From a bacterium (GTDB lineage: Bacteria; Armatimonadota; Chthonomonadetes; Chthonomonadales; CAJBBX01), in NCBI GenBank assembly GCA_009885735.1, contig VFKD01000084.1, positions 1-41,802 on the forward strand: 41,802 nt of DNA, in the 5' to 3' direction. Made by a program: the position numbers and the translations under genes. The notes beneath the pieces were generated by a model. The model was not told where the DNA came from. It worked only from the letters and a program-made list of their open reading frames with translations, and did not search any database. Within the stretch, counting starts at the first letter, position 1. Each line of letters starts with the position of its first letter. Of this stretch, positions 33,192 through 36,530 are shown piece after piece.

Positions 33192-34622
33192 ATGTCCACT
33201 ACACTCGTTGAAAATGAAGTAATGTCGCACAAAGTCGCCGATCTGTCGCTTGCAGATTGGGGCCGCAAAGAGATCGAGATTGCCGAGCAAGAGATGCCCG
33301 GCCTAATGTCCATTCGTCGCAAGTATGCCGCCGAGAAGCCTCTGGACGGCGTCCGCGTGATGGGCTCGCTCCATATGACCATCCAGACGGCCGTGCTCAT
33401 CGAGACGCTGGCCGATCTTGGCGCCGAGGTTCGCTGGGCAAGCTGCAATATCTTCTCTACCCAGGACCACGCTGCTGCAGCCATCGCGGTTACCGGAGTG
33501 CCTGTGTTCGCCTGGAAGGGCGAGACCCTCGAGGAGTACTGGTGGTGTACCTACGAGGCGATGAGTTTTGCAAAGGGCAAGGGCCCCGAGCTCATCGTGG
33601 ATGACGGCGGAGACGCCACCCTGCTGATCCACAAGGGCTACGAGCTCGAGAACGGCAGCGACTGGGTCAACACGCCGTCCGAGAGCCATGAAGAGAGCGT
33701 CATCAAGGACTTGCTGAAGAAGGTCCACGCAGAGAGCCCGCGCCGCTGGCACGAGATGGTGGCGGACTGGCGAGGCGTGTCGGAGGAGACAACGACCGGC
33801 GTTCACCGCCTCTACAAGATGCAGGAGACCGGTTCGCTCCTGGTGCCCGCAATCAACGTGAACGACTCCGTGACCAAGTCAAAATTCGACAACCTCTACG
33901 GCTGCCGAGAGTCGCTGGTGGACGGCATCAAGCGGGCCACGGACGTGATGCTCTCGGGCAAAGTCGCGGTCGTTTGCGGTTATGGAGACGTGGGCAAGGG
34001 CTCAGCGCAGTCTCTCAGCCATAACGGCGCTAGAGTGATTGTTACCGAGGTGGACCCCATCAATGCTCTGCAGGCTGCCATGGCAGGCTACCAAGTTGCT
34101 CCCATTGAGGACACGCTTGGGACGGCAGACATCTACGTCACCTGTACGGGCAACGTCGACATCATCACGCTTGAGCACATGTCGAAGATGAAGGACCAGG
34201 CGATCGTCTGCAACATCGGCCACTTCGACAACGAGATTCAAGTGGACCTGCTGAACAACGCTCCGGGCGTTGTCCGGACGAATATCAAGCCGCAGGTCGA
34301 CAAGTACACCTTCCCGGCAGGGCAGAGCATCTTCCTGCTGGCCGAGGGCCGCTTGGTGAACCTGGGCTGCGCGACGGGCCACCCAAGCTTCGTGATGTCG
34401 AACAGCTTCTCGAACCAGACCCTTGCTCAGATCGACCTCTGGAACAACCGCGACAAGTACGAGGTGGGCGTCTACACGCTTCCGAAGAAGCTCGACGAGG
34501 AAGTGGCGCGTCTGCACCTCGAGAAGATCGGAGCCAAGCTCACTACGCTGAGCGCGAAGCAGGCCGACTACATCGGAGTGCCGGTGGAAGGTCCATATAA
34601 GCCGGAGAGCTACCGGTACTAG
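33192..34622 (+). CDS. ahcY: Adenosylhomocysteinase (SAH hydrolase)
   Basis: [67 protein letters not shown]. Confidence 0.98.
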
Positions 34623-34651
34623 GCCGGGGCTAAGTCGTGGTGCGTGAGTAA

Positions 34652-34686
34652 CGGCCCTGCGGCTCCGACAGGGAGTCGCGGGGCCG
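34652..34686. terminator. GC-rich hairpin downstream of ahcY
   Basis: CGGCCCTGCGGCTCC/GGAGTCGCGGGGCCG stem; homologous hairpins at 35613-35645 and about 36497-36530. Confidence 0.6.
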
Positions 34687-34748
34687 ACCCATGTCGCTTA
34701 CGTCCCGGTTTGCTTTAGATACTCGATCCTGACCAACGTGTACCGTGG

Positions 34749-35087
34749 TCAGCCGGCTTTAACCACTATCGATCCGGTCCGGTGGTCTCCTGCAGGTTCG
34801 ATCGTGATACGAACGTCCAAGTCCAGCGCGTTGACGTAGCGGATGAGCCGTCCAAGCGAGAATGATGAGACCTTGCCGCGAACAAGCTGGGAGACCTTTG
34901 CCTGGTCTGTGCCGAGCCGCCTTGCGGCCTCAGTTTGAGTGAGACAGAGAGCATCTATACGGCGCCGTATCGAGTGCGCAAGCTCTGCTTTTGCCAGTTC
35001 CTCGTCGGCGTTTGGCAGACCCAGATCGGCGAAGACATTGCCGGAGGATGCGACAAATTCACTCTCACCAATTGAATGGTTGCTCAA
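34749..35087 (-). CDS. XRE/HigA-like HTH antitoxin
   Basis: SSGNVFADLGL..LTQTEAARRLGTDQAKVSQL..FSLGRL; TTG start overlapping the toxin stop. Confidence 0.9.
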   Translation of the reverse strand: MSNHSIGESEFVASSGNVFADLGLPNADEELAKAELAHSIRRRIDALCLTQTEAARRLGTDQAKVSQLVRGKVSSFSLGRLIRYVNALDLDVRITIEPAGDHRTGSIVVKAG

Positions 35088-35524
35088 GTCCGTTTCTCCT
35101 TTCGGTTCTTGCCGGACGCCTGTTCCGGCGATGCTGGCACGTTTGAGTCCTCGGGATACGCTGAAGCGTAGTCAGTCCTAGCCCGAGTTAGTCGAGCGTA
35201 GACGATATCAATGTCCTTCGTCGGAGTTGCGATCCCGCTCTTGCTCTTCTTCTCGAAAACGTGCAGCACGTATACCGCCTTGGCAAACTTGGCCGCGTAG
35301 ACGCATCGAAAGGTTCGCCGGTCACGCCGCTCCGTGAGCTTCATGACCTCATTCGCGTGCGAGAGCTCGAACGGGGAGGCATTCTCAGGCGTTATGCCGT
35401 TCTGAATCTCCCAGAGCTGGTGCCCGAAAGCTGTCCGCACGGCGGGAGGCATCTCGCGAAGGTCACTCAGCGCGTTTCCCTGAAAGCGCAACTGCCTTGT
35501 CGTCGTAGAATCGTCGCCTTCCAT
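35084..35524 (-). CDS. RelE/ParE-family (Gp49/DUF891-like) toxin
   Basis: ALSDLREMP..R.AFGHQL..IQ.G, FRCVY..F..AVYVLHVFEKKSK.GIATP; start inferred from the promoter position. Confidence 0.88.
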   Translation of the reverse strand: MEGDDSTTTRQLRFQGNALSDLREMPPAVRTAFGHQLWEIQNGITPENASPFELSHANEVMKLTERRDRRTFRCVYAAKFAKAVYVLHVFEKKSKSGIATPTKDIDIVYARLTRARTDYASAYPEDSNVPASPEQASGKNRKEKRT

Positions 35525-35530
35525 ACAGAG

Positions 35531-35559
35531 ATTATGCCATTGTTGGCATAGTGTGTCAA
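35531..35559 (-). promoter_or_regulatory. TA promoter with palindromic operator
   Basis: TTGACA-N17-CATAAT-N6-ATG, with TATGCCA-N4-TGGCATA (35533-35550) overlapping the spacer and -10. Confidence 0.8.
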
Positions 35560-35585
35560 GGCTAAACTCTATTCCGCTGTCGGCC

Positions 35586-35645
35586 GAGGGTCCTGTAAGC
35601 GGCAGCGCATGTCGGCGCGCGATTCCGAAATGGAATCGCGGGGCC
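35586..35645 (+). repeat. Decayed remnant of the ahcY 3' end and its downstream hairpin
   Basis: GAGGGTCC-TGTAAGCGGCAGCGC versus ahcY GAAGGTCCATATAAGCCGGAGAGC (18/24), then the hairpin CGCGATTCC..GGAATCGCGGGGCC. Confidence 0.55.
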
Positions 35646-35737
35646 ATTCGCATGTCACCGATGCTCACTTGGCCTTGCACGAGAACGCATAAAGGCTGTA
35701 CAATAACGATTGAGTTGCTCGACATAGGGAGACAGTG

Positions 35738-35977
35738 ATGACAAAGGTGCTGGAGGCGGTGTATCAAGATGGCGTCCTGCGGCCCACTGCGCCACTCGAT
35801 CTACCGGATGGCACGCTCGTCGATCTCTTCGTCGTGCGGTCGGCCAAGCAGTCCTTGTCTGCCGGCCGACTGCGTCCAGACGAGATATTGGAAGCCATTG
35901 CGAGCCTCCCAGTAGAAGATGGGCCGGAGTTCTGCGCACGCGACCATGACCGCATACTATATGGCGCAGACAGATAA
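35738..35977 (+). CDS. DUF104/AF2212-like antitoxin
   Basis: EAVYQDGVLRP..PLDLPDGT.V signature; 1-nt overlap with the PIN gene; upstream TTGCAC-N18-TACAAT. Confidence 0.85.
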   Translation: MTKVLEAVYQDGVLRPTAPLDLPDGTLVDLFVVRSAKQSLSAGRLRPDEILEAIASLPVEDGPEFCARDHDRILYGADR

Positions 35978-36396
35978 TGCCTCGAAATCTTGTGTTCGTG
36001 GATACAAGCGGGTGGTTCGCCTCGCTCGTTCCGTCGGATTCAGACCATGTCGCTGCCCAGAGCTGGCTCAGGGCCAATCGTCGCGCGGTCTTCACGACCG
36101 ACTTTGTGCTTGATGAGACCCTTACACTTCTCCGGGCAAGGGGACAATCCAACCGTGCCCTTGCATTCGGGCACGCCCTGCTAGACGGCTCCCTCGCACA
36201 ACTGTATTTCCTTGCAGAGGACGACATTCGTGAGGCGTGGACTTTGTTCAGCACGTATGGTGACAAGCAATGGAGTTTCACCGACTGCACGAGCTTTGCT
36301 ATCATGTCTCGACTGAGCATCCCAACCGCGCTCGCGTTCGACCACCACTTCGGTCAGATTGGCACCGTGATTGTAGTGCCGGGCTTACCACTCTAA
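35977..36396 (+). CDS. vapC: PIN-domain (VapC-family) toxin
   Basis: VFVDTSGW, TTDFVLDET, SFTDCTSF and AFDHHF motifs. Confidence 0.92.
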   Translation: MPRNLVFVDTSGWFASLVPSDSDHVAAQSWLRANRRAVFTTDFVLDETLTLLRARGQSNRALAFGHALLDGSLAQLYFLAEDDIREAWTLFSTYGDKQWSFTDCTSFAIMSRLSIPTALAFDHHFGQIGTVIVVPGLPL

Positions 36397-36530
36397 GCGC
36401 GAAGCAGGCCGACTAAATCGGGGTGCCGGTGGAAGGGCCGTATAAGCCGGAGACCCATCGGTACTAGGCTGGGGCTAAGTCGTGATGGTTGAGATTCGGC
36501 CCCGCGATACCTGAGTGGAATCGCGGGGCC
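36384..36530 (+). pseudogene. Orphan copy of the last 28 codons of ahcY plus downstream region and hairpin
   Basis: Colinear without indels with 34539-34685 (offset 1845): [26 protein letters not shown] versus [27 protein letters not shown]. Confidence 0.9.

What the first reader, a model, noticed from the sequence alone, without database searches (positions are those of the whole stretch)
34539..36530. Serial stacking of toxin-antitoxin cassettes at the ahcY 3' end, each closed by an orphaned ahcY tail
Order seen: ahcY end and hairpin; RelE/XRE pair; decayed ahcY tail and hairpin (35586-35645); DUF104/VapC pair; near-intact ahcY tail and hairpin (36384-36530). The distal copy has 7 synonymous codon changes, 2 missense and 1 nonsense, and its hairpin differs in sequence while still pairing. 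No integrase or transposase is nearby. Inference: at least two rounds of 3'-end replacement that use a conserved housekeeping gene as landing pad and build a cassette array without attC sites.
Basis: partly seen in the sequence, partly recalled or inferred. Interest (0 to 1): 0.75.

Follow-up and report, generated by a model that had tools for sequence, protein, structure and literature searches.

The report
Addiction-gene cassettes stacked behind ahcY
Two toxin-antitoxin gene pairs sit between an intact housekeeping gene (ahcY) and a left-over copy of that gene's last 30 codons, and related bacteria carry the same kind of scar with other selfish genes, so the end of ahcY is a recurring landing place for foreign DNA.

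Summary
The main observation holds. A 148-153 nt copy of the ahcY 3' end plus its terminator hairpin (36378-36530, 80-81% identical) lies 1.85 kb downstream of the real ahcY end. Between them are a HigB/HigA-like pair and an AF2212(DUF104)/PIN pair. The "middle decayed tail" is only a third hairpin copy; its coding part is no better than shuffled sequence.

The pattern recurs. Orphan ahcY 3' pieces behind an intact ahcY occur in at least 8 other genomes of three families. Their cargo is other toxin-antitoxin pairs, a restriction-modification pair or integron cassettes. In three lineages the stub starts at the same codon (Gly447/Ala448). Functional and orphan tails differ mostly at synonymous sites, so one of them came from another genome.

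In two sister species the cargo plus stub is 96-100% identical while the ahcY body is 83-92%, and similarity ends at the stub's stop codon.

No integrase and no attC site lies at the locus. Stub junctions cut through unrelated genes.

I favour homology-driven (RecA-type) 3'-end replacement, kept in place by the addiction modules (0.5). Decayed site-specific elements, as in tandem accretion, come second (0.3). This is a new variant of a known kind, of moderate interest.

The parts
33192..34622 (+). ahcY (S-adenosyl-L-homocysteine hydrolase, long type, 476 aa), intact
   Evidence: ORF and translation; 85-89% aa identity to full-length relatives; AdoHcyase Pfam hit on a relative's tail
34533..34685 (+). 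Repeat copy 1: last 30 codons of ahcY (from Ala448), a 30-nt spacer and terminator hairpin A (34652-34687)
   Evidence: the repeat finder D1; blastn; fold -41.7 kcal/mol, z -5.3
34749..35087 (-). higA-like antitoxin (HTH_37/XRE type), convergent with ahcY
   Evidence: Pfam PF13744 1.7e-23; TTGA start/stop overlap with the toxin gene, read
35084..35524 (-). higB-like toxin (Gp49/DUF891, RelE superfamily), toxin-first operon
   Evidence: Pfam PF05973 1.2e-16 on 35188-35524; ORF
35531..35559 (-). sigma-70-like promoter of higBA (TTGACA-17-CATAAT, 11 of 12, TG-extended)
   Evidence: consensus scan; a consensus match only
35611..35646 (+). Hairpin M: third, partly decayed copy of the ahcY terminator hairpin, lying between the two divergent cassette promoters
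   Evidence: 0 of 1000 (vs D) and 1 of 1000 (vs A) shuffles reach the alignment score; the 14-mer is shared only with hairpin D in the whole genome; its own fold is weak, z -2.0
35735..35977 (+). AF2212-like (DUF104) antitoxin candidate
   Evidence: Pfam PF01954 4.4e-9; TAATG overlap with the PIN start
35977..36396 (+). PIN-domain (VapC-type) toxin. Its last about 6 codons and its stop lie inside the orphan tail, in another frame
   Evidence: Pfam PF01850 4.7e-8; relatives align to residues 1-135 of 139; junction read
36378..36530 (+). Repeat copy 2: orphan ahcY tail (29-30 codons, TAA at 36414-36416, its own TAG at 36465-36467), spacer and hairpin D (36498-36530)
38024..38743 (-). Uma2-family gene, probably the ancestral downstream neighbour of ahcY; it marks copy 2 as the original gene end
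   Evidence: Pfam PF05685 2.9e-31; Uma2 homologues follow the ahcY tail in G015 and orphan 1 in G007

Best explanation
The ahcY 3' end works as a homology landing pad, and no dedicated recombinase is needed.

Proposed steps (all inferred):
1. Foreign DNA from a related genome carries the donor's ahcY 3' part, its terminator hairpin and whatever lay behind it, here a convergent toxin-antitoxin pair.
2. General (RecA-type) homologous recombination inside ahcY brings it in.
3. The other end is closed in one of two ways. Either an illegitimate join lands in the recipient's ahcY tail (Campbell-type entry of a circularised fragment, or homology-facilitated illegitimate recombination). Or, once a cassette already ends in an ahcY stub, a second homologous crossover occurs between that stub and the recipient's own tail.

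Result: the gene stays intact with a foreign tail, and the displaced native tail is left as an orphan distal to the cargo. A further event adds a new cassette next to ahcY, which gives stacking.

Inserts flanked by direct repeats are easily lost. Those that carry post-segregational killers (TA, R-M) persist, which would explain the cargo.

In this window the order of events would be: the vapBC-like cassette first, leaving tail D; the higBA-like cassette second, leaving a tail of which only hairpin M survives. Alternatively both came in together from a donor that was already stacked.

Shown: the repeats, the gene content, the recurrence, the selection signature and the transfer of a cargo+stub unit between two species.
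Inferred: the recombination pathway, the order of events and the stabilising role of the toxins.
For: 1. Foreign tail. Functional and orphan tails differ mainly at synonymous sites: G000 Sd 8, Nd 2 plus 1 nonsense, pN/pS 0.08. Over 7 independent pairs, 48 of 78 changes are synonymous. The expected share is 0.24 if both copies were neutral (P 3e-12) and 0.39 if only the orphan decayed (P 5e-5).

2. Recurrence with unrelated cargo.
- G002: DUF433+DUF5615.
- G066/G056: BrnT and partner.
- G048: type II methylase plus a weak REase hit.
- G007: integron cassettes.
- G278/G363: a 141-aa ORF.

3. Stub junctions vary (residues about 301, 316, 419, 430, 439, 447/448). They also cut unrelated genes. In G007 an IntI-like gene is broken after about 48 residues and fused to the tail. 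In G278 a YycE-like gene is broken at profile position 40 of 52 and fused in frame. In G000 the PIN gene runs into the stub.

4. Repeats reach at least 306 nt (G066, 89%) and at least 198 nt (G007b, 97.5%), far longer than usual att cores.

5. G278 versus G363. The ahcY body is 83-92% identical. From about 300 nt before the stop through hairpin, cargo, gene fragment and stub, identity is 96-100%. Right after the stub's stop codon it falls to 65% and then 34%. Downstream contexts differ. Three other species of the genus lack the insert.

6. No recombinase at the locus. The whole assembly (97% complete) shows 4 tyrosine-recombinase hits, none on this contig, and no serine recombinase.

7. Uma2 lies downstream of the distal copy, as in G015 and G007, which marks the distal tail as the original gene end.
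Against: - Three independent lineages (G000, G002, G278/G363) have stubs that start within about 3 nt of each other, at Gly447/Ala448. Random illegitimate ends do not predict this, whereas a site-specific core would. My rough post-hoc estimate, not computed in any call, is about 0.01 for 3 of 8 junctions falling in one 2-codon window.
- The left edge of the high-identity tract in G278/G363 is not sharp, because the ahcY 3' part is conserved anyway (G278 vs G091 89-94% there).
- No close relative of G000 is available, so no empty site and no mosaic breakpoint could be shown for this window.
- The middle tail is not demonstrable.
- Most genomes are fragmented MAGs. G056 and G066 carry the same contig sequence. 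Relatives are not independent.
- An integrase acting in trans cannot be excluded. Two tyrosine-recombinase hits beyond those I take to be XerC/D-like exist on other contigs (C224, C645).
Confidence: 0.5

Rival explanations
1. Decayed site-specific integrative elements (tandem accretion). Elements whose attP carries an ahcY tail integrate through a tyrosine recombinase into a core in the ahcY 3' end. They later lose their integrase and become cis-mobilizable remnants, keeping only the addiction module, and new elements integrate next to them.
For: - This is the textbook cause of direct repeats made of a target gene's 3' end. Integration into 3' ends of housekeeping genes, CIMEs and accretion are described in PMC5704250 (passages read). 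Tandem islands each ending in an ssrA repeat, 15 of them without integration genes, are described in PMC3146451 (passages read).
- Stub starts coincide at Gly447/Ala448 in three lineages. That position lies in a block (GAAGATCGGCGC.AAGCTGAC) that looks by eye nearly invariant across the listed ahcY genes.
- IntI-like recombinase hits occur in 5 of 6 orphan-bearing genomes of the order, against 3 of 62 others. These genomes are not independent.
Against: - None of the orphan-bearing loci examined has an intact integrase between ahcY and the stub.
- The only recombinase genes nearby belong to integron arrays, and in G007 that gene is itself cut by the stub junction.
- Five other junction positions exist. 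Truncated unrelated genes abut the stubs. Repeats reach over 300 nt.
- In G278/G363 the stubs are more alike (91 of 92) than the functional tails (88 of 92, my count by eye after correcting a 1-nt offset's output). This fits a core at the far 3' end, not at the shared stub start.
- Of 17 loci with relatives of the IntI-like protein in other genomes, only the 2 that carry the same sequence lie near ahcY.
Confidence: 0.3
2. Integron-type capture. An IntI-like recombinase uses the conserved ahcY terminator hairpin as an attC-like or secondary site, so the locus is an unusual cassette array.
For: - In G007 and G066/G056 a genuine integron lies directly against the ahcY terminator: an IntI-like gene (TIGR02249, 4e-41 on the N-terminal part) and attC sites found by a model built here (78 and 27.6 bits in G007).
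- G000 has its own integron with the same attC family and a VapBC-like cassette on contig C709.
- Cargo is mostly TA pairs, as in chromosomal integrons (that comparison is recalled).
Against: - With filters off, the lineage attC model finds nothing at 34000-38800 (best 7.5 bits, E 0.8).
- By my reading, the hairpins lack R''/R' boxes.
- The two cassettes are divergent and have their own promoter-like sites.
- IntI recombination does not duplicate 90 nt of a coding tail.
- No hit in G000 reaches the integron-integrase family cut-off; one search found only a weak IntI-like match with two stop codons (C709).
Confidence: 0.07
3. Local tandem duplication of the ahcY end followed by insertion of the cassettes and neutral decay of one copy; or an assembly chimera of two strains.
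For: The locus comes from a fragmented metagenome bin (741 contigs). Depth in public runs is 3-6x, and none of the contig pieces listed in the cut output spans 36395-36398.
Against: - The synonymous excess rejects duplication plus decay (P 0.028 for G000 alone, 5e-5 over seven pairs).
- The longest exact match between the two copies is 20 nt (read), too short to mislead an assembler at common k.
- PIN is followed by tail sequence within one Logan contig (36059-36395), and other junctions are bridged in two studies.
- The same architecture appears in independent assemblies on contigs of 30 kb or more (G002, G278).
Confidence: 0.04

Closest known systems
Tandem accretion of integrative elements and cis-mobilizable elements (CIMEs) at the 3' end of a housekeeping gene (ICESt1/ICESt3 family at fda in Streptococcus thermophilus; Pavlovic 2004 and Bellanger 2011, as cited in PMC5704250; I read passages of the review only)
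   Same: Accessory segments stacked behind an intact conserved gene. Each is bounded by a direct repeat made of that gene's 3' end. Some segments have no integrase. The newest element lies next to the gene.
   Different: No integrase was seen in any ahcY insert examined. Repeats are long (90 to over 500 nt) and diverged (81-98%) rather than short identical cores. Stub starts vary and cut unrelated genes. Inserts are tiny (0.6-3 kb) and consist of addiction modules. The target ahcY was not found in print.
Dehalococcoides ssrA genomic islands (PMC3146451; passages read)
   Same: Multiple tandem islands downstream of a single-copy essential gene, each ending in a repeat of its 3' end. Their number varies between strains. 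Fifteen islands lack integration modules.
   Different: There the repeat is a fixed 20 bp, the insertion point is fixed, and a serine integrase module is present in 16 islands. Here the target is a protein-coding gene, the stubs vary in length and no integration module was found.
Homology-facilitated illegitimate recombination and Campbell-type single-crossover insertion of foreign DNA (de Vries and Wackernagel 2002; Prudhomme et al. 2002; recalled, not read here)
   Same: A conserved gene gives the homologous anchor, and the other end joins in unrelated sequence. No dedicated recombinase is needed. A single crossover of a circle predicts duplication of exactly the piece of the gene that the circle carried.
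   Different: These are laboratory transformation phenomena. A natural, recurrent hot spot that accumulates TA or R-M cargo, and a stub that then serves as a second homology arm, are to my knowledge not described. Three stubs sharing one start codon is not expected.
Integron cassette arrays and CALINs (clusters of attC sites without an integrase; recalled from Cury et al. 2016)
   Same: Small cassettes, often TA pairs, stacked at one chromosomal place. True integron arrays occupy this very place in G007 and G066.
   Different: In the window there is no attC and no intI; the cassettes are divergent with their own promoters; the repeated unit is a coding tail plus terminator.

Membership tests
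Type II toxin-antitoxin, HigB/HigA type | RelE-fold toxin of the Gp49/HigB family | tested here: met
   PF05973 1.2e-16, above the cut-off
Type II toxin-antitoxin, HigB/HigA type | HTH antitoxin encoded directly after the toxin (toxin-first order) in one operon | tested here: met
   PF13744 1.7e-23; TTGA overlap of stop and start; promoter-like site upstream of the toxin
Type II toxin-antitoxin, HigB/HigA type | Toxicity neutralised by the partner | not testable with these tools
   Needs expression assays
VapBC-type toxin-antitoxin | PIN-domain toxin with the conserved acidic residues, preceded by a small antitoxin gene with overlapping stop and start | tested here: met
   PF01850 4.7e-8; D in FVDTSG, E in LDET, D in FTDCTS and D in FDHH, read from the translation; AF2212-like partner 4.4e-9; TAATG overlap
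Site-specific integrative element (ICE/IME/CIME) | Direct repeats (attL/attR) that include the 3' end of the target gene | tested here: met
   148-153 nt at 80-81%
Site-specific integrative element (ICE/IME/CIME) | Integrase gene in the element, or at least in some members at the same site | tested here: not met
   No Phage_integrase or Resolvase hit on the contig. None lies between ahcY and the stub in G002, G048, G066 or G278. In G007 there is only a 48-residue fragment of an integron integrase.
Site-specific integrative element (ICE/IME/CIME) | One fixed crossover core shared by independent insertions | tested here: inconclusive
   Three lineages share Gly447/Ala448; five other stubs start elsewhere
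Site-specific integrative element (ICE/IME/CIME) | Excision to a circle and an empty site | tested here: inconclusive
   No cassette-skipping joints in Logan contigs of 4 runs, but depth is 3-6x and contigs drop rare variants
Integron / CALIN | attC sites at cassette ends | tested here: not met
   A covariance model of the lineage's attC family (it finds untrained sites in G007 at 78 and 27.6 bits) gives at most 7.5 bits, E 0.8, in 34000-38800 with filters off
Integron / CALIN | intI next to the array | tested here: not met
   No TIGR02249 hit over the cut-off in G000; none on the contig
Homology-driven insertion (Campbell-type / HFIR) | Anchor in a conserved gene, with the other junction in unrelated sequence at variable positions | tested here: met
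   Truncated intI, truncated yycE-like gene, PIN end inside the stub, stub starts from residue 301 to 448
Homology-driven insertion (Campbell-type / HFIR) | Donor-derived tract that begins inside the anchor gene and ends with the homology | tested here: inconclusive
   G278/G363: the right edge is exactly at the stub's stop; the left edge is blurred by the conservation of the ahcY 3' part. Not testable for G000 (no close relative).
Homology-driven insertion (Campbell-type / HFIR) | Dependence on RecA, independence of site-specific recombinases | not testable with these tools
   Needs genetics

The most novel reading that the evidence does not exclude
Addiction modules (TA, R-M) in this lineage travel as recombinase-free cassettes. 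Each carries the donor's ahcY end on one side and a 30-codon ahcY stub on the other, that is, two portable homology arms to one of the most conserved genes of the cell. Any genome with a similar ahcY could then capture them by RecA alone. The gene is always repaired by the incoming tail. New cassettes stack next to the gene. The killer function protects the repeat-flanked insert from being recombined out. The shared stub start at Gly447/Ala448 would be the inherited edge of one successful arm.
Probability: 0.3. Interest if true: 0.75.

Novelty: new variant of a known kind. Interest (0 to 1): 0.5.

Why it matters
- It gives a concrete, testable case of how selfish toxin-antitoxin and restriction-modification genes spread and pile up at a housekeeping gene without carrying any mobility gene.
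- It comes from a phylum that is hardly studied genetically. Record titles name related contigs as Chthonomonadales, which I recall belongs to Armatimonadota.
- Orphan gene tails are datable scars. Their synonymous divergence tells donor from recipient, and their junctions tell homologous from site-specific entry.
- If the homology-arm reading holds, the same logic may explain integrase-free defence and addiction hot spots next to core genes elsewhere. It would also point to the ahcY end as a natural neutral landing site for genetic tools in these bacteria.
- If the classical reading holds, ahcY is a new attachment gene for integrative elements.

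Tried and rejected
- Middle 'decayed tail': local alignment of 35525-35611 to tails A and D is not better than shuffles (131 and 798 of 1000). I dropped it as a tail.
- Hairpin as a genome-wide REP element: rejected. The 14-mer occurs only twice, both in this locus.
- Rfam: no family at 33000-38200 at E up to 0.1.
- Do cassette and stub travel together? Relatives of the PIN toxin in metagenome contigs: 52 loci, best 57% identity, 0 of 52 next to an ahcY piece. These are too distant to say anything.
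- Integrase link: relatives of the IntI-like protein in genome contigs gave 17 loci. Only the 2 that carry the G066/G056 sequence itself hold ahcY pieces.
- Reads: 4 runs laid (all Logan contigs). No joint skips a cassette, no circular junction is seen, and depth is 3-6x. This is uninformative on variants.
- Genome-wide self-BLAST for other gene-tail repeats gave 351 direct-repeat pairs, mostly paralogous repeats. They were not sorted further.
- Phylum sample: of 11 genomes outside the order with 2 or more matches to the tail query, 10 were examined. Eight were a second, short-type ahcY paralogue or a second full copy. Only G278 and G363 were true stubs. G216 was not examined.
- PADLOC: none of the TA proteins or unknown cargo proteins matched. 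Only the G048 methylase (2e-81) and a weak REase hit (8.6e-4) did.
- Earlier notes of this scan: nothing near the locus.
- Literature: no paper holds ahcY + 'integration site' + 'genomic island'. The 2 papers with adenosylhomocysteinase + attB + integrase are unrelated. One unrelated paper holds toxin-antitoxin + HFIR.
- Slips corrected and resent: (wrong frame, redone in 21); wrong frames for three pairs, redone in 52.

Full report
**What is in the window**

ahcY (33192-34622, +, 476 aa) ends in a strong hairpin at 34652-34687 (-41.7 kcal/mol, z -5.3). Downstream lie two gene pairs.

- On the minus strand, convergent with ahcY, is a toxin-first pair. The toxin is Gp49/DUF891, a HigB/RelE-type protein (35084-35524; Pfam 1.2e-16). 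The antitoxin is of HTH_37 type (34749-35087; 1.7e-23). Their stop and start overlap (TTGA), and an 11-of-12 sigma-70-like site lies at 35531-35559.
- On the plus strand is an AF2212-like (former DUF104) gene (35735-35977; 4.4e-9), followed by a PIN-domain gene (35977-36396; 4.7e-8) with a TAATG overlap.

The PIN frame runs for its last six codons into a second copy of the ahcY end. Positions 36378-36530 match 34533-34685 over 153 nt at 80%, or 148 nt at 81% with E 6e-34. This is the only other copy in the 5 Mb assembly.

The copy covers the last 29-30 codons (from Gly447/Ala448), the stop, a 30-nt spacer and the hairpin. The hairpin has changed in sequence but still folds (-32.6 kcal/mol, z -4.8).

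**The middle element**

Between the two divergent cassettes lies a third copy of the hairpin (35611-35646). None of 1000 shuffles reaches its score against copy D, and 1 of 1000 against copy A. Its 3' arm shares a 14-mer with hairpin D that occurs nowhere else in the genome.

The supposed coding remnant upstream of it is not significant (131 and 798 of 1000 shuffles). The window therefore holds one demonstrable orphan tail and one extra hairpin. The hairpin sits upstream of both cassette promoters, where it cannot terminate either operon. A relic of a former ahcY end is the simplest reading, but it is an inference.

**Is the assembly real?**

- Logan contigs from two studies bridge ahcY into higBA (34287-35517), higB through the middle hairpin into the DUF104 gene (35516-35864), and tail D into the downstream DNA (36398-36680).
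- None of the contig pieces listed in the output, which was cut, spans 36395-36398, and depth is only 3-6x.
- The longest exact match between the copies is 20 nt.
- The same architecture recurs in independent assemblies (below).

I take the structure as real.

**The pattern recurs**

Record titles name related contigs as Chthonomonadales MAGs. In the window's order, 29 of 68 genomes carry this long-type AhcY (my count). Extra ahcY 3' pieces lie behind the intact gene on the same contig in G000, G002, G007 (two pieces), G048 and G056/G066, which share one contig sequence.

Further traces:
- G028 keeps a 60-nt remnant.
- G047 keeps an internal fragment 5 kb downstream.
- In G015 the contigs break inside the tail.

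In a 401-genome sample of the phylum, 11 genomes outside the order had two or more matches. Of the 10 examined, 8 were paralogues and 2 (G278 and G363, one genus of another family) were true stubs. In that genus G091, G242 and G415 have no stub, so presence varies among close relatives.

**Cargo between ahcY and the stub**

- G002: DUF433 + DUF5615, a PIN-like pair.
- G066: BrnT and its partner.
- G048: a type II cytosine methylase plus a weak restriction-enzyme hit.
- G278/G363: a 141-aa ORF of unknown family.
- G007: an integron array (below).

Most cargo genes converge on ahcY and end within a few dozen bases of its hairpin.

**Selection signature**

In every pair, the functional and orphan tails differ mainly at synonymous sites.

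| Pair | pN/pS |
|---|---|
| G000 | 0.08 |
| G002 | 0.19 |
| G007a | 0.21 |
| G007b | 0.17 |
| G048 | 0 |
| G066 | 0.30 |
| G278 | 0.10 |

Pooled over these seven pairs, 48 of 78 changes are synonymous. The expected share is 0.24 if both copies drifted, and 0.39 if only the orphan drifted while the gene copy accepted synonymous changes alone (P 3e-12 and 5e-5; G000 alone P 0.028). The two tails therefore diverged while both were parts of working genes, in different genomes. One tail was brought in.

A Uma2-family gene follows the distal copy in G000. Homologues follow the ahcY end in G015 and orphan 1 in G007. The distal copy is thus probably the original gene end.

**Junctions**

- Stubs start at Gly447/Ala448 in G000, G002 and G278/G363, within about 3 nt of each other. 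This lies in a block that looks by eye nearly invariant in the ahcY genes listed.
- Other stubs start at about residues 439 (G007a), 430 (G028), 419 (G048), 316 (G007b) and 301 (G066).
- The DNA just upstream of a stub is unrelated from case to case, and it is often a broken gene:
  - In G007, the first 48 residues of an IntI-like recombinase (Phage_int_SAM_4, 2.6e-6) are fused to the tail.
  - In G278, the first 40 of 52 profile positions of a YycE-like domain (3.9e-11) are fused in frame.
  - In G000, the PIN gene loses its own last codons.
- Repeats reach at least 306 nt (G066) and at least 198 nt (G007b).

**A transferred unit**

G278 and G363 differ by 8-17% along the ahcY body. From about 300 nt before the stop through the hairpin, the cargo ORF, the broken yycE-like gene and the stub, they are 96-100% identical. 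Immediately after the stub's stop codon identity falls to 65% and then 34%.

What follows the stub differs: G278 has about 960 nt that G363 lacks. The stubs are 91 of 92 identical. The functional tails are 88 of 92 identical, which I counted by eye after correcting a 1-nt offset in that output. Non-functional DNA that is more alike than an essential gene means recent sharing. Cargo plus stub moved between these lineages, or into both from one source, and the right end of the moved piece is the end of the ahcY homology.

**Recombinases and integrons**

- No Phage_integrase or Resolvase hit lies on the window's contig. The 97%-complete assembly has four tyrosine-recombinase hits elsewhere and no serine recombinase. 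The main ORFs between 27 and 41.8 kb carry no such family.
- In G066/G056 an integron-integrase-like gene (TIGR02249, 4e-41 on the N-terminal part, cut by IS21) faces an array with GCCTAAC...GTTAGGC sites. That array ends against the ahcY stub's hairpin.
- G000 has its own integron on contig C709. It has a broken intI, five attC sites, and FKBP and VapBC-like cassettes, and it lies between two 5S rRNA genes.
- A covariance model built from these attC sites found two untrained sites in G007: 78 bits between the DUF695 and HNH genes, and 27.6 bits next to the ahcY hairpin. The G007 insert is therefore an integron array whose intI is cut by the stub.
- The same model, with filters off, finds nothing in 34000-38800 of the window (best 7.5 bits, E 0.8).

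**Mechanism**

Two readings fit the architecture.

The classical one is site-specific integration with an attP that carries an ahcY tail, followed by decay to integrase-less remnants and accretion. This is described for 3' ends of housekeeping genes and for ssrA (PMC5704250 and PMC3146451, passages read). The shared stub start favours it.

Against it stand four points:
- the lack of any integrase in the inserts;
- the only nearby recombinase gene being itself cut by a junction;
- the spread of the other junctions, the broken genes at the junctions and the length of the repeats;
- stubs in G278/G363 that are more alike than the functional tails.

I therefore favour homology-driven entry. A crossover in ahcY brings in the donor's tail, hairpin and neighbouring genes. 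The far end is closed either illegitimately in the recipient's tail (Campbell-type or HFIR; literature recalled) or, once a stub exists, by a second homologous crossover between the stub and the recipient's tail. Repeat-flanked inserts are unstable, so those that carry post-segregational killers are the ones that remain.

I put this at 0.5, the site-specific reading at 0.3, integron-type capture at the hairpin at 0.07, and duplication or artefact at 0.04.

**What stays open**

- Why three stubs share one start.
- Whether the window saw two events or one.
- Which recombination pathway acts.
- No close relative of the window's organism was available.
- The genomes are fragmented MAGs, and relatives are not independent.

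**Comparison with the known**

The closest known systems are CIME accretion at fda and the tandem ssrA islands. The window shares their geometry but not their integrase, their short fixed core or their size. ahcY as a target was not found in the held literature. I file the finding as a new variant of a known kind, of moderate interest. The recombinase-free 'portable homology arm' reading is the bold case that the data allow.

Noticed in passing
G000 contig C709 (locus L178) 1-5400: A chromosomal integron in the window's own genome. It has a broken IntI-like gene (395-673, minus strand, 2 stop codons); five attC sites of one family (1068-1170, 1935-2037, 2387-2490, 3488-3594, 5021-5128); and cassettes that include an FKBP gene and a PIN (VapC-like) pair. 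The whole lies between two 5S rRNA genes (1-87, cut by the contig end, and 5185-5294, full length) that share a terminator hairpin.
   Followed up: partly
window 34623-34687 and 36468-36530; L045, L046, L008, L075: The ahcY 3' untranslated region is conserved across five genera. It consists of a spacer of degenerate heptamer repeats, up to about 7 copies of GTCAGTG in G007 and G066, followed by a hairpin with the stem GGCCCCGCGAT/ATCGCGGGGCC. The other family of the order has unrelated terminators behind ahcY. The reason for the sequence conservation is unknown.
   Followed up: partly
window 26737-26813 and 32016-32092: Two complete tRNA-Met (CAT) genes on the minus strand, 94% identical over 95 nt. 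They flank 5.2 kb with FG-GAP/ASPIC, TPR and unknown genes; no integrase lies between them.
   Followed up: partly
window 37741-37986: Repeat cluster between the hypothetical gene and the Uma2 gene: a 61-nt direct repeat (37741-37801 and 37837-37897, 88.5%) and 4.6 copies of a 24-nt palindrome-containing unit (37880-37986), which looks REP-like.
   Followed up: no
window 6693-7060 and 8091-8458: Direct repeat of 368 nt at 90.5% identity, 1.4 kb apart; content not examined.
   Followed up: no
window 32188-33120 (minus strand): An ArsR-type HTH fused to a SAM-dependent methyltransferase domain, divergent from ahcY. It is a possible regulator linked to the methyl cycle.
   Followed up: no
family f1 genomes: Only 5 of 24 genomes of the window's family have this long-type AhcY (85-91% identity). 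The other 19 have a short type, about 40% identical in the C-terminal part. The patchy distribution suggests that ahcY itself was exchanged.
   Followed up: no
L046 (G002:C159) 3422-3887 versus 7544-7900: A second, partly decayed copy of the DUF433/DUF5615 cassette (341 nt, 82%) lies 4 kb further downstream of ahcY in G002, beside a B12-binding radical SAM gene. No ahcY remnant was detected next to it.
   Followed up: partly
L081 (G047:C63) 535-5722: Behind ahcY in G047 lie an NB-ARC/STAND NTPase with TPR repeats and a 509-aa unknown gene. Then come a GNAT pair that is also downstream of the stub in G048, and an internal ahcY fragment (residues 183-284, 77%). This looks like a defence-type insert at the same hot spot.
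   Followed up: partly
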